From positions 27,094,001-27,158,000 of the forward strand of contig CM114271.1 in the NCBI GenBank assembly GCA_050084515.1: a stretch of 64,000 bases of DNA. The letters run 5' to 3'. This DNA comes from Blasia pusilla. Its lineage: Eukaryota. This document shows positions 6,012 through 52,374 of the stretch, piece after piece; the first letter of the stretch is position 1, and every line of letters starts with the position of its first letter. Both the position numbers and the translations under genes were made by a program. The notes beneath the pieces are model-generated. The model was given only the letters and a program-made list of their open reading frames with translations, searched no databases and had not been told where the DNA came from.

Positions 6012-6960
6012 TGTCGTGCGCATACACATCGCTACACAACATACATCGTTGTCACCAAACACACACGCAAACACTCACGATCCCATGCTAACTCATGGCA
6101 TCCAAACAACGAGACAAGAAGTACTAAAATATCTCCAATAAAGTAAGATCCAATCTCTCTCTACACCATCTCATACCATAGCTCTCAAAAGTGTGCATTC
6201 TCTCTCATGTCAAACCAAACCCACTCTCCTGATGAGAGACCTGGGTTACACTCACAAGGCAAGGGACCATAACTCCGCCGCCTTATGCCAAGAGGTTCAA
6301 CAAAGAGAGAATGGTCTCTCAAGTTCTCTCTCCTTGAGGTATACCCATCCCCTCTCCCAAGCTCTCTCCATGGTAACCTATTCTCCCAAGTCACCTCCTT
6401 GGCTCTTGACCTAATGTAGGAGGTCAAGGGCCACTTACCAAAAATATAAAGTCGATCATATACTCAAAATGGTAATTACCTAAAATAGTAAGTTCCTCAA
6501 TATGGCTCCAAATGAGCCGAAACGAAGGGGAAACCTGCTCTCTCAAATTTCCCAGAACCTCAACAGGTCACCCTCAACCTACTGAGCATGTCCTCCACTA
6601 CTCATGTAGGCGCTCTACTACATCTCACCGATCTATCCTAAAAGACGTGACAATTGTCGTGCACATACACATCGCTGTCACCAAACACACACACAAACGC
6701 GCACGATCCCATCCTAACTCATGGCATCCAAACAAAGAGACAAGAAGTACTAAAATATCTCCAATCGCTCCCCTAGTTGGTGGTTAGGTCCCTCTAATTC
6801 CAGATAGCCATCTATCCCTACCTACCATGACATACATCTCTCGCACACTAAGAGCAAGAAAGGTCGGGTGCTCATGTGGCCCCATCGTTAGTCGCCTTCT
6901 TGTCATCCATATCACAAAAAAAGTCGGAATCGAAACGTACCTGTATCTCCTCTATGTACC
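6012..6960 (-). mobile_element. G1 gypsy family, copy a: 3'-terminal remnant (3' UTR + A-B-A terminal repeats)
   Basis: Repeat A at 6012-6139, B at 6140-6652 and A at 6655-6765, then PPT-like CTAGGGGAGCG on the minus strand and a 3' UTR. Nearly identical to 28909-29840. Confidence 0.85.
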
Positions 6961-49743: not shown

Positions 49744-52374
49744 TTTCTGGACCCTTAAAATTTGCACCGCAATCCAAAGTTCCAACTTTCATTCCAACTA
49801 TAGGAGCTTCGATGGTAAATCGCTCGCGGGATTGCAACACCTCCTTGGACGTGGCTTGCACCACTACTCTACTTGATTGATTTATCACACTCGGGGAAGG
49901 CAAAAAGGGCCGACGTAGCTCGAGCACTTAATCTTCTTAGACTTACCACACCCCGGGAAGGCAAAAGTGGACCGCACAGCTCAAGTACTCAAGCAATCAT
50001 GTGGCAATGGACTCTCAACTTCTGCTTCCTATCTAGCTTGCTTCCCTTTGCCCTCTCTCTCGTTGCCTTGTTGCACTTTCGTCTCCGCCTTGCTCTCCTT
50101 ACCTTCACATTTTCGCTCAGATGTCTCTTATTGCCTGACCCTCATACCAGTCAGCCCGTCTGGTTCATACTCCCTCGCTCACACTCCCTTGCTCAATCCC
50201 CCCCCCAATCCGTAGCTAAACCCTTCTTTGCTCGCGTGCCATGAGCACGCGATGTCATATGCCACGTAGGGTAATGAAAATTTGGAAGCCCTATTTTTCT
50301 CATTTTTTCTCATCTAAGTTCATATGTACCTTATTTCTCATTAGTTTAGGACTTCACATGTTTAGTCATTTTTCATTTCTGACACTATTGAGTCATATAA
50401 ATTTTTAGTATGACTACACACAAGACTGACTAGTTACTAAGTCATTTCAAATATGACTCTGCCATATCCTAAGATTTCTCTATGACTCAGTCATAATTTT
50501 ATATGACTAAAAAATTATTATTAAATGGGATGATATGAATGCTATCCAACTAGCAGACATTCTAGCCATATGTTTGGGTCATGAAGAACCTCAGTCATTT
50601 TAGTACTAGTCATAAAAACCACTTTTTTCTTCTAGTGATCTCTTGGGCATATATGTGGGAGAACTCATAGTAATCGTCCATAGGCACCCCCTCTAAATGC
50701 TGGAACATACCGTTCTATGTTGTGAACGGGTTGAAATCTTTGAAGTTTCTAACCCGCTGTGAGTCATACCAACTCCTAAACTCCGCAATGAAGTCGTGTA
50801 GCTCTATAGTGTGTATAGCACTTGAAAACCTACGCGGTCCTCTATCCCAGTCGTCCATCTCGTATGTCCAATTGGTAGGACCATTCAATGTGTGCGGTAA
50901 ATCACTAACACACTCCTCTACACTCCCTCCCTTGTCTAAAGATGACAAAGAAGGAGGTTGCGCTCGTCCCTCACATGAGACCCTTGGAACCTCGCGCCAC
51001 TCCGCGTAAACCCTCTAGAGCTACTCTAAGGTCTACCACCTCGACTATCAAAGTCCCAAAAGGACGCCGTGATGACCCTCGTATCCCTCTCACGCAGTCA
51101 TTCTCAATCTCGCAAGGAGTCACTCAATCACTCAAACTAAACATGCGGCACTCAATCTACACCCTCTCATTGAGACGTGTATTGTGCAGCAACAAGCGGC
51201 CTGATACGACAAATCAGCTTTTGTCTTATCATCTCTTTGACACACATACCCTCAACTGCGAACATCCCACACAGGTCTATGTCCCTTAAACCCATACATC
51301 AACGATGCTCTCAGCATCTGCACGAAACCCAATATCCCCAAATAAGTACCCAATACCCTGAGATTCCTAACACGTGCAAGGCAAAATAATAGAATGGGTT
51401 ACCTAAACAAATGTCAATTTCCCCTCAGCAATTGCAAACCTCGACCCCAACTAGGTCGTGAAGAAAACTCCTCAAAGCAGCTAGTTGTACTCTTCTTCAA
51501 CTGACGATGCTCAAATCTCCTTAATATGCGGTGCGGGTCAGCCGGACGGTGCAGCACAGAATGGTACAATCGTAATGACACTCGGGAATAGGTGCAGCAC
51601 TGAACGGCGTACCCTCCTCAATCAACAAAACACAATCAATTCCCCTAATGATGGTGCGGCTCTACGATCGAGATAGTGCGGCGTGTCACGACTGTTAGGA
51701 TAGATTGGTGGGATCTAGCAGAGCGTCTTCACGAGTAGTGGAGGATAGGCCCAGGAGGTCGAGAATGATTTTTTAAGGCCCCGGGAAACCTGAGAGAGCA
51801 GGTTTCCCCTTCGTTTCGGTTCATTTGGAGCCATCTAGAGAAACTTACTATTTCGAGTAAGTTTCCATGTTGGGGATCATTGACTTTCTATTTTTGGTAA
51901 GTGGCCCTTGACCTCCTACATCAGGTCAAGAGCCAAGGAGGAGACTTGGGAGGATAGGTTACTATGGAGAGGGGAGGGGTATACCTCAAGGCGAGAGAGC
52001 TTGAGAGCTCATTATCTCTTTGTTGAACCTCTTGGCATGAGGCGGCGGAGCTATGGTCCCTTGCCTTGTGAGTGTAACCCAAGCCTCTCATTAGGAGAGT
52101 GGATTTGGTTTGACATGAGAGAGAGTGCACACCTTCGAGAGCTATGGTGTGAGATAGTGTAGAGAGAGATTGGATCTTACTTTACAAAGAGAGAATTGAT
52201 AGCTACAATACGGGAGCTTGCTGGAGTTTCGTTGTGTTTGCAGATGGTGCGCGATTTGGAGCTGCGAGCAGGAAGTTATGGCCAATTTTAGGGTAAAAAT
52301 CAAAACCCTAAAGCAGCAGCCGCCATTGGCGGTGCCGTCATCGTCGACCGCCGTCACTGTCGCCGTCGTCCAGG

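What the first reader, a model, noticed from the sequence alone, without database searches (positions are those of the whole stretch)
6012..52183. Split terminal repeats (B ... A-B-A) on a DDE-integrase gypsy element instead of two LTRs
Seen, in element orientation: both visible 5' ends (51684-52183 and 32751-33256) contain only the ~500-bp B block. B starts TGTCACG in copy d, and both run directly into the same internal sequence ACAAAGAGAGAATTGA, with no A block and no TGG-type tRNA PBS. All three 3' ends (6012-6765, 15076-16268, 28909-29652) read PPT-like tract, A (~110-128 bp, ending CGACA), 2 nt, B, A; B is doubled in copy b. The internal A/B joint is ...GACA-nn-TGTC..., which looks like a built-in circle junction. 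Known: split direct repeats characterise tyrosine-recombinase retroelements (PAT, TOC1, Ngaro), whereas DDE-integrase gypsy elements normally have two full LTRs and a PBS. Inference: G1 may use a different, possibly tRNA-independent, reverse-transcription route while still integrating through TG...CA ends. Standard LTR finders would mis-delimit it.
Basis: partly seen in the sequence, partly recalled or inferred. Interest (0 to 1): 0.85.

Follow-up and report, generated by a model that had tools for sequence, protein, structure and literature searches.

The report
Gypsy retrotransposon with split terminal repeats
A very abundant plant (bryophyte-type) gypsy retrotransposon really does carry DIRS/Ngaro-style split repeats (B ... 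A-B-A) instead of two LTRs although it integrates with an ordinary DDE integrase, a layout noted once before in a green alga but never explained.

Summary
In the window, 2 of 2 visible 5' ends are B only and 3 of 3 visible 3' ends are PPT-A-nn-B-A. The element encodes RT, RNase H, DDE integrase, a PHD finger and a C5-DNA-methyltransferase domain, and no tyrosine recombinase.

It is not a local rearrangement. About 0.8% of sampled genomic reads lie on copy c. Related families on independent metagenome contigs show 12 distinct 5' ends, all B only. Their 3' ends are A-nn-B-A (12) or A alone (18). Complete copies carry 4-bp target duplications outside TGTCAYG...GCACRACA.

New here: the sequence directly after the 5' B is complementary to a site 176 nt before the end of B, and the pairing covaries in three families. 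That is a Tf1-type self-primer, which explains the missing tRNA site. PPT and PBS therefore bracket A-nn-B, while integration uses the back-to-back, near-palindromic ends inside it, so integrated copies are circular permutations of the expected cDNA. How the trailing A is made is unresolved. I favour joining of cDNA ends plus integrase cleavage at the junction, but one indel pattern argues against it.

Prior art: one figure-legend remark on KnitGypsy-Dnmt3 in Klebsormidium.

The parts
6012..6139 (-). copy a, A2 (terminal A, ends ...GCACGACA, then unrelated flank)
6140..6652 (-). copy a, B (starts TGTCACG at 6652)
6655..6765 (-). copy a, A1 (short form). 'AT' at 6653-6654 joins it to B. The PPT-like CTAGGGGAGCG lies just upstream at 6766-6776. 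The copy is cut off at about 6958.
15076..16268 (-). copy b 3' end: A1 16268-16141, 'AC', truncated B 16138-15700, second B from 15649, A2 15204-15076
16269..25403 (-). copy b internal part (PHD, integrase, RNase H, RT, DNMT/protease homology), degenerate. Its 5' end was not found.
17187..19326 (+). related element 'G2' inserted into copy b. It starts TGTCACAT and ends with the last 43 nt of an A block (...GCGCACGATA). It is flanked by GCTA/GTTA, and the empty site is visible in copy c. Its own self-primer pair is 17492-17503 / 17661-17672.
28910..29027 (-). copy c, A2 (its last ~10 nt are replaced by the (CT)n microsatellite)
29028..29539 (-). copy c, 3' B (B3)
29540..29652 (-). copy c, junction dinucleotide GT (29540-29541) and A1 (29542-29652, short form)
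29653..32737 (-). copy c internal part with a ~6-kb deletion. It holds the PPT-like tract, PHD (29839-30204), integrase H2C2+rve (30664-31383), RNase H (31393-31713), the RT C-terminal part (31762-32208), and the leader.
32738..32750 (-). copy c, proposed self-primer binding site ACAAAGAGAGAAT, directly after the 5' B
32751..33256 (-). copy c, 5' B (B5; first 7 nt missing). It contains the complementary ATTCTCTCTTTGT at 32923-32911, 176 nt before the end of B.
51684..52183 (+). copy d, 5' B (starts TGTCACG). TATA-like GGTATACC lies near 51980. The primer sequence ATTATCTCTTTGT is at 52011-52023.
52184..52196 (+). copy d, proposed self-primer binding site
52197..59423 (+). copy d internal part: leader with 19-bp tandem repeats (52351-52850), gag/protease region, C5-DNMT fragment (56622-56915), RT (57694-58557) and RNase H (58816-59118). 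Similarity to copy b stops at 59423.
50637..51481 (-). inverted fragment of another G1 copy, matching copy d 53934-53089

Best explanation
SHOWN.

G1 is a real, high-copy Ty3/gypsy-type retrotransposon family of a bryophyte-like plant. It encodes gag, protease, a C5-DNMT domain, RT, RNase H, a DDE integrase and a PHD finger. Its integrated copies read B - leader/genes - PPT - A - nn - B - A.

The inserted unit runs from TGTCAYG (start of B) to GCACRACA (end of the last A). In complete members of the lineage it is flanked by a 4-bp target duplication, so a DDE integrase joins exactly these two ends.

The 13-16 nt directly after the 5' B are complementary to a site inside B, 176 nt before its end and about 30 nt after a TATA-like box. 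The pairing covaries in three families.

The two B blocks of one copy behave like LTRs: they share derived changes. So, over most of their length, do the two A blocks of one copy.

INFERRED.

Minus-strand synthesis is self-primed as in Tf1/sushi, with the first nucleotides of the transcript folding back on the PBS. Plus-strand synthesis starts at the strongly conserved G-rich tract before A. Reverse transcription therefore defines an LTR equal to A-nn-B. The integrase, however, recognises the two ends that lie back to back inside that LTR, at the near-palindromic joint CACGACA-RY-TGTCAYG. The integrated copy is thus a circular permutation of the expected cDNA.

My preferred route has three steps. 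The cDNA ends (end of B, start of A) become joined, as in a 2-LTR junction. Integrase cuts the joint in the LTR next to the PBS. The opened molecule B...A-nn-B|A is then inserted. Cutting both joints, cutting a one-LTR circle, or later A1 x A2 recombination gives the second observed form, B...A. That form lacks a 3' R and should be a dead end.
For: Domains.

Blocks and joints in the window.

Abundance and a genome-wide terminus at the start of B:
- 97,906 of 12,431,861 reads of run X18 lie on copy c.
- 731 reads of X19 stop matching exactly at the first base of B and continue into unlike, non-agreeing sequence (agreement 0.33).

Lineage-wide layout on independent contigs (with 46 and 51):
- 12 of 12 distinct 5' ends are B followed by leader, with no A.
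- 12 distinct 3' ends are A-nn-B-A and 18 are A only.
- The same layout occurs in further families L050, L070/L073 and L058.

Target duplications:
- GCTA/GTTA around the G2 insertion, with an empty site in copy c.
- 4 of 4 complete A-B-A copies and 3 of 4 complete A-only copies.

Self-primer:
- 13-nt exact match in copy c (0 of 500 shuffles reach it) and 16-nt exact in L013 (0 of 500).
- A different sequence in each of G1, G2 and G3, at the same 176-nt distance in G1 and G3.
- In L013 the minimum-energy fold closes R-U5 by this pairing.

LTR-like co-generation:
- B5 and B3 of copy c share 7 derived sites.
- Each of 4 complete G3 copies shares 7-8 non-majority states between B5 and B3, and no column separates B5 from B3.
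- A1 and A2 of one copy share copy-specific states.

Palindromic joint: read by eye.

Precedent that retroviral integrases cut LTR-LTR junctions: PMC1905944, PMC1180852 and PMC4372172. I saw only their titles and the starts of their abstracts in the listing.
Against: (1) In G1, A1 of both independent copies a and c carries the same 17-nt deletion plus an adjacent G, while their A2 blocks are long. No 17-nt difference appears among the listed read differences (only the best-supported rows are shown). If both A blocks came from one template each cycle, this should not persist.

(2) A symmetric 2-LTR-circle model predicts the mirror form B-A-nn-B...A. It was seen at 0 of 12 distinct 5' ends.

(3) The B|A joint has the same length in 10 of 12 distinct copies. 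L003 and L022/L027 differ. That is tidier than end-joining usually is.

(4) In G1 copy c, the minimum-energy fold pairs the 5' end with an internal U5 site rather than with the PBS.

(5) In several decayed copies the complementarity is weak. It is 6 nt in L006 and L024, no better than shuffles. The site was not found in 3 of 12 loci.

(6) The transcript start, the poly(A) site and the cDNA forms are all unobserved.
Confidence: 0.5

Rival explanations
1. DIRS/Ngaro-like end restoration. The genomic RNA runs from inside the 5' B to inside or past the last A and is copied essentially end to end. The internal A-nn-B joint serves only as the template that restores the missing outer parts. A1 and A2 are therefore inherited separately, and the B|A joint is inherited rather than re-made.
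For: The short A1 / long A2 state is shared by the independent copies a and c. No mirror form occurs at 12 distinct 5' ends. The B|A joint is uniform. The layout is identical to the commonest split-direct-repeat scheme, A1-internal-B1-A2-B2 (PMC8969392, passage read).
Against: It needs minus-strand priming at or after the end of A2, where the sequence is host flank and differs in every copy. The conserved, covarying PBS sits next to the 5' B instead. A1 and A2 of one copy share copy-specific changes. No consistent A1-versus-A2 difference was found across 12 G3 copies beyond sites prone to C-to-T decay.
Confidence: 0.25
2. DNA-level mobility. The integrase acts as a transposase on the chromosomal TGTC...GACA ends (as in Ginger-type elements), so the whole unit is copied as DNA and reverse transcription plays little part.
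For: Position-specific A1/A2 difference inherited in G1. Ends and 4-bp duplications typical of DDE enzymes.
Against: B5 and B3 of one copy are regenerated together, as in reverse transcription. An intact relative keeps long open RT-RNase H frames. PBS and PPT are conserved across families. A copy number giving 0.8% of reads fits copy-and-paste.
Confidence: 0.07
3. Ordinary two-LTR gypsy element whose copies in this window are local recombination products or chance integrations of 2-LTR circles.
For: Only five ends are visible in the window, several of them damaged. Copy b has a doubled B.
Against: The same layout occurs in at least four other families on independent contigs with target duplications. 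0 of 12 distinct 5' ends have an A. No abundant alternative joint appears among the listed joints of about 98,000 laid reads (291 joints were not shown).
Confidence: 0.03

Closest known systems
KnitGypsy-Dnmt3 of Klebsormidium nitens (de Mendoza et al. 2018, PMC5890265; section 9 and the Fig. 4 legend read)
   Same: It is a Gypsy-type pol carrying a C5-DNMT domain. [quoted passage not shown] G1 copy d and the intact relative L058 also carry PF00145.
   Different: That paper gives no ends, target duplication, primer site or mechanism in the text I read. The figure and supplements were not visible to me. 'PHD' does not occur in its text. Its host is a charophyte alga, whereas the relatives here are bryophyte proteins. 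No sequence comparison with KnitGypsy was possible.
Ngaro / PAT-type tyrosine-recombinase retroelements (split direct repeats A1-internal-B1-A2-B2)
   Same: The order of repeats is identical, if G1's B is read as their A and G1's A as their B. The internal joint reproduces the joined termini.
   Different: G1 has a DDE integrase and no tyrosine recombinase. It makes 4-bp target duplications, whereas DIRS-type elements lack them (PMC8969392). Its methyltransferase is a C5 type, not the Dam-like type.
Tf1/sushi and plant Tcn1 chromoviruses (self-priming Ty3/gypsy elements)
   Same: There is no tRNA PBS. The sequence just after the 5' repeat is complementary to the presumed first nucleotides of the transcript. 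Self-priming is predicted for the moss and club-moss Tcn1 clade (PMC6317226, passages read).
   Different: Those elements have two complete LTRs and a chromodomain. G1 has split repeats and a PHD finger. The phylogenetic position of G1's RT was not tested.
Integrase cleavage of retroviral 2-LTR circle junctions (HIV-1, foamy virus)
   Same: A palindromic joint of the two viral ends is cut by integrase to give integration-competent ends (listing only).
   Different: In retroviruses this is a side route on a by-product. Here the joint is built into every LTR and would be the normal substrate.

Membership tests
Ty3/gypsy (Metaviridae-type) LTR retrotransposon | pol order RT - RNase H - DDE integrase | tested here: met
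   Copy c has RVT_1, RT_RNaseH, Integrase_H2C2 and rve in that order. L058 ORF2 has the same order plus PHD.
Ty3/gypsy (Metaviridae-type) LTR retrotransposon | two identical long terminal repeats bounding the element | tested here: not met
   The 5' end is B only. The 3' end is A-nn-B-A or A only.
Ty3/gypsy (Metaviridae-type) LTR retrotransposon | TG...CA ends and a short target duplication | tested here: met
   TGTCAYG...GCACRACA ends. 4-bp duplications in the G2 insertion and in 7 of 8 complete relatives.
Ty3/gypsy (Metaviridae-type) LTR retrotransposon | tRNA-complementary PBS next to the 5' repeat | tested here: not met
   No TGG-type site follows B. No tRNA genes in the window to compare with. 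A self-complementary site is present instead.
DIRS order (DIRS1, PAT, Ngaro, VIPER) | tyrosine recombinase gene | tested here: not met
   No such Pfam hit in 40 ORF scans of the window and of loci L008, L044 and L058. The two long ORFs of intact L058 fill 976-8226 of its 9317 bp.
DIRS order (DIRS1, PAT, Ngaro, VIPER) | split direct repeats A1-internal-B1-A2-B2 | tested here: met
DIRS order (DIRS1, PAT, Ngaro, VIPER) | no target-site duplication | tested here: not met
   4-bp duplications are present.
Tf1/sushi-type self-priming | PBS directly after the 5' repeat, complementary to the first nucleotides of the transcript | tested here: inconclusive
   The complementarity and its covariation are met. 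That the transcript starts at the complementary site is inferred only from a TATA-like box about 30 nt upstream. No RNA data.
Gypsy-DNMT elements with DIRS-like repeats (KnitGypsy-Dnmt3) | C5-DNMT domain inside the gypsy polyprotein, together with DIRS-like repeats | tested here: met
   PF00145 at 56622-56915 (43.6 bits, cut-off 22) and in L058 ORF1. Repeats as above.
Gypsy-DNMT elements with DIRS-like repeats (KnitGypsy-Dnmt3) | common descent with the Klebsormidium family | not testable with these tools
   No KnitGypsy sequence was available. Supplements are closed.

The most novel reading that the evidence does not exclude
This streptophyte gypsy lineage has made the 'circle junction' its normal integration substrate. 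Reverse transcription builds LTRs equal to A-nn-B, and a DDE integrase then cuts a palindromic pair of ends inside the LTR and inserts a circularly permuted genome. Split direct repeats would then be a product of the reverse-transcription and junction logic, not of tyrosine recombinases. That would make the lineage a living model for how DIRS/Ngaro-type architectures arose from LTR elements.
Probability: 0.35. Interest if true: 0.85.

Novelty: new member of a known kind. Interest (0 to 1): 0.62.

Why it matters
Split direct repeats are used as a diagnostic of tyrosine-recombinase retroelements, and two LTRs as a diagnostic of integrase-bearing ones. This lineage breaks both rules, and it is not a curiosity: it accounts for about 0.8% of the sampled reads of its host.

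Standard LTR finders look for two equal repeats plus a tRNA PBS. They will miss or mis-delimit it, so repeat annotation and insertion dating in bryophyte and charophyte genomes are affected.

It also turns a vague legend remark into a testable question. A DDE integrase has to obtain TG...CA ends from a cDNA whose priming sites bracket a different repeat. The palindromic joint, the self-primer and the two integrated forms give concrete predictions for RACE, sequencing of extrachromosomal DNA, and integrase assays.

Tried and rejected
- No whole genome is held for this window, so a genome-wide dot plot was impossible.
- Earlier findings of this scan: nothing by sequence or by place.
- Read laying lists only the best-supported rows. 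291 joints and 9167 loose ends were not shown. It therefore cannot exclude minority forms, and it cannot settle whether A1-short / A2-long is general.
- Depth ratios are compatible with mostly A-B-A copies but do not discriminate. B is about 5,000-5,800, A1+A2 about 4,800, and internal about 2,500-3,500.
- My first pass for A1/A2 pairs picked wrong pairs in L004, L019, L039 and L057. It was replaced by BLAST with family blocks.
- The script misfiled L016, L023 and L075/L076 as 'A only'. They are rearranged or cut by a contig end, and I removed them from the count by hand.
- The script stopped after 6 of 13 cases. One search replaced it.
- I considered several purely RT-based routes to the trailing A: a second plus-strand primer at the joint, snap-back of the RNA 3' end on the start of B, rolling synthesis on the open-circle intermediate, and a tRNA-like site inside A. 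None gives B|A without a PBS or PPT remnant, or the needed complementarity is not conserved between G1 and G3.
- The pair 39307-39927 / 46809-47430 was inspected as a possible canonical LTR control. Its ends were not clear enough to use.
- Literature searches:
  - 'split direct repeats' + retrotransposon: 17 papers, none on an integrase-bearing element by their listing.
  - PHD finger + integrase + LTR retrotransposon + chromodomain: 5 papers, none relevant.
  - LTR retrotransposon + Marchantia + PHD + integrase: 0 papers.
  - 'KnitGypsy': 1 paper.
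Full report
**What is in the window**

The window is eukaryotic, and no genome is held for it. Self-comparison and direct reading show four copies and one fragment of one family, called G1 here.
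- Copy a is a 3' fragment on the - strand, 6012-6958.
- Copy b is on the - strand, 15076 to at least 25403.
- Copy c is on the - strand, 28910-33256. It has an internal deletion, but both of its ends are present.
- Copy d is on the + strand, 51684 to about 59423.
- An inverted fragment lies at 50637-51481.

In element orientation, every visible 3' end reads as follows: the conserved tract GGGACCTAACCACCAACTAGGGG(R)GCG, then A (ATTGGAG...GCACGACA), two nucleotides (AT, GT or AC), B (TGTCACG...CTTACTTT), and A again, followed by unrelated flank. Both visible 5' ends are B alone, followed at once by ACAAAGAGAGAATTGA.

The corrections are small:
- Copy c has lost the first 7 nt of its 5' B.
- Copy c has lost about the last 10 nt of its final A.
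- The first of copy b's two B blocks is truncated.
- A1 of copies a and c is 17 nt shorter than A2.

**What it encodes**

Pfam scans give these domains:
- Copy c: the C-terminal part of RVT_1, RT_RNaseH, Integrase_H2C2, rve and a PHD finger, in that order.
- Copy d: RVT_1 and RT_RNaseH.
- Copy d, 56622-56915: a C5 cytosine DNA-methylase fragment (43.6 bits against a cut-off of 22).

An intact relative on a metagenome contig, L058, has two long frames. One carries protease and DNA_methylase. The other carries RT, RNase H, H2C2, rve and PHD. Its first frame aligns to copy d over 575 residues at 37% identity. Nothing resembling a tyrosine recombinase was found, and L058 has no room for one.

The integrase's best named relatives are proteins of Marchantia, Calypogeia and Sphagnum, some of them with rve plus PHD. 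The host is therefore probably a bryophyte. I did not pursue its identity further.

**Is the layout general?**

Reads. On copy c, 97,906 of 12,431,861 sampled reads of run X18 were laid at 80% likeness or more. X19 gave nearly the same figures and may be the same data. C>T and G>A changes dominate. In X19, 731 reads match up to the first base of B (29539) and then continue into sequence that does not agree between reads (agreement 0.33). The start of B is therefore a genuine element end at many loci. No listed joint had more than 90 reads, but most rows were not shown.

Independent contigs. Searching metagenome contigs with an integrase alignment gave 350 confirmed stretches, of which the best 80 were kept. 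Most belong to one family, G3, with A of 115 bp and B of 339 bp. I ran BLAST with its A, B and leader sequences and merged loci that share flanks. Three groups that the script misfiled were removed by hand. The counts are:
- 12 distinct 5' ends, all B followed directly by leader, and none with an A upstream.
- 12 distinct 3' ends of the form PPT-A-nn-B-A.
- 18 distinct 3' ends where the single A is followed directly by unrelated flank.
- 2 groups too short to score.

The same PPT-A-nn-B(-A) layout is present in three further families:
- L050 (integrase 76% identical to G1).
- L070/L073 (53% identical).
- L058 (56% identical; intact frames; the contig is cut inside B on both sides).

**Ends and target duplications**

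Across G1, the related insertion G2, G3, L050, L070 and L058, the element starts T(G/A)TCA(C/T)G and ends GCAC(G/A)ACA. The sequences at the start of A and the end of B differ between families.

G2 (17187-19326, + strand) sits inside copy b. It starts TGTCACAT and ends with the last 43 nt of an A block. It is flanked by GCTA and GTTA, and copy c shows the empty site.

Of eight complete G3 copies:
- The four A-B-A copies have AAGG, TCTC, AATC and AATG on both sides.
- Three of the four A-only copies have TACA, ATTA and TGTG.
- One, L060, has no match.
- In L027, L053 and L069 the first bases of B are mutated, and I placed the boundary by alignment.

The unit inserted by the integrase thus runs from the start of B to the end of the last A.

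**The missing PBS**

In copy c, the 13 nt after the 5' B (ACAAAGAGAGAAT) are the exact reverse complement of ATTCTCTCTTTGT inside B. None of 500 shuffles reached this.

In G3 locus L013, the 16 nt after B (CTCAAAGAACTATGTT) are the exact complement of AACATAGTTCTTTGAG in B (0 of 500 shuffles). In G2, the pair is CATCTTTCTCAT / ATGAGAAAGATG. These are three different sequences with the same relation, which is covariation.

In G1 and G3 the site lies exactly 176 nt before the end of B, about 30 nt after a TATA-like box.

Across the 12 G3 loci, paired positions out of 16 were:
- 16 in one locus
- 13 in four loci
- 12 in one
- 11 in one
- 9 in one
- 4 in one

The site was not found in the other three. 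In two decayed copies, the exact match is no better than shuffles.

The minimum-energy fold of L013 closes the whole R-U5 by this pairing. That of G1 copy c prefers an internal partner.

This is the arrangement known from Tf1/sushi elements, and it is predicted for the moss and club-moss Tcn1 clade (PMC6317226, passages read). The transcript start itself is inferred, not observed.

**What follows for the anatomy**

The G-rich tract before A lies within the motif GGACCTAACCAC...CTAGGGGGGCGA. That motif is conserved at nucleotide level and sits about 975 nt after the integrase match in 36 of the 80 loci. It marks the likely plus-strand start. The PBS after B marks the minus-strand start.

Standard reverse transcription would therefore give A-nn-B - genes - A-nn-B. 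The integrated copy is instead B - genes - A-nn-B - A. That is the same circle opened at the joint CACGACA-nn-TGTCAYG. The joint is an imperfect palindrome: nn is always purine-pyrimidine, and with GC it is palindromic over 16 nt.

The two B blocks of one copy share derived states. There are 7 in copy c and 7-8 in each of four complete G3 copies, and no column separates 5' from 3' B blocks. The two A blocks of one copy share copy-specific states. Both repeats therefore behave as if regenerated each cycle.

**Mechanism: the preferred model and its problems**

I favour this sequence of events:
1. Self-primed reverse transcription.
2. Joining of the cDNA ends, end of B to start of A.
3. Integrase cleavage at the joint of the LTR next to the PBS.

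This gives B...A-nn-B|A with recessed CA ends and 2-nt overhangs. Cutting both joints, cutting a one-LTR circle, or later A1 x A2 recombination gives the B...A form. That form lacks a 3' R and should not replicate further. Retroviral integrases are reported to cut LTR-LTR junctions (titles and abstract starts only).

Four results count against this model:
- The shared 17-nt deletion in A1, but not in A2, of the independent copies a and c. Their independence follows.
- The absence of the mirror form at 12 distinct 5' ends.
- The uniform length of the B|A joint in 10 of 12 distinct copies.
- The lack of any RNA or cDNA data.

A DIRS-like restoration route, in which A2 is inherited, explains the first three. 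It lacks any primer site after A2, however, and it ignores the conserved PBS. I could not devise an RT-only route that yields B|A.

**Comparison with what is known**

The repeat order equals the commonest split-direct-repeat scheme of tyrosine-recombinase elements, which lack target duplications (PMC8969392; PMC4157794).

The closest precedent is KnitGypsy-Dnmt3 of Klebsormidium. Its figure legend says that the repeats are those of a DIRS element while the domains are those of Gypsy (PMC5890265, section 9 read). No other paper in the library contains that name.

G1 and its relatives share the DNMT domain, so they are most simply new, bryophyte-side members of that kind. New here are the exact ends, the target duplication, the palindromic joint, the self-primer, the second integrated form, and the breadth and abundance of the lineage. 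The figure and supplements of that paper, which I could not see, may already show some of this.

**Verdict**

The layout is real, lineage-wide and mechanistically unexplained, but it is not without precedent.

Noticed in passing
window 56622-56915 (+); L058 976-5082: C5 cytosine DNA-methyltransferase domain (PF00145) inside the gag-protease frame of the element. It is degenerate in G1 copy d and lies in an intact 1369-aa frame in L058.
   Followed up: partly
window 11376-11804 (-): Uninterrupted 142-aa frame with a full ATG8 domain (E 3.4e-51). It could be an intronless gene or a processed copy, and it lies between G1 copies a and b.
   Followed up: no
window 28607-28909, 37183-37322, 49636-49743: Long (CT)n/(GA)n microsatellites. 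The first one abuts and truncates the end of copy c.
   Followed up: no
window 52351-52850 (+): 19-bp tandem repeats in the leader of copy d. All three frames are open across them. They are absent from the leader of copy c.
   Followed up: no
window 33254-39927 and 46101-49743: A second repeat family. 33254-35150 resembles 37395-39307, 35696-36833 resembles 47526-48728, and 39307-39927 resembles 46809-47430 at 98% identity. A weak RT/integrase match lies at 43999-46353 (+). The ends were unclear when read.
   Followed up: partly
window 59832-63728 (-): Four long open frames (516, 242, 233 and 224 aa) with no Pfam match, starting where copy d loses similarity to copy b. Possibly another inserted element.
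   Followed up: no
G3 B block, e.g. L013 about 3275-3304; G1 B near 32950-32911: Just upstream of the primer sequence, B contains a copy of the PBS-like sequence, so the presumed transcript start sits in a short hairpin or palindrome (CAAAGAAC-ATA-GTTCTTTG in G3).
   Followed up: no
alignment of G3 A blocks: The base joining B to the last A is A instead of G in 6 of 12 copies, and never the reverse. Three copies (L003, L018, L036) share a further G-to-A change in A2 only. This could be decay at a methylated site or a trace of how the joint is made.
   Followed up: partly
window 15205-16138 (-): The two B blocks of copy b are only about 75% identical to each other, and the first lacks its last ~70 nt. 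This is an old duplication or a recombinant between subfamilies.
   Followed up: no
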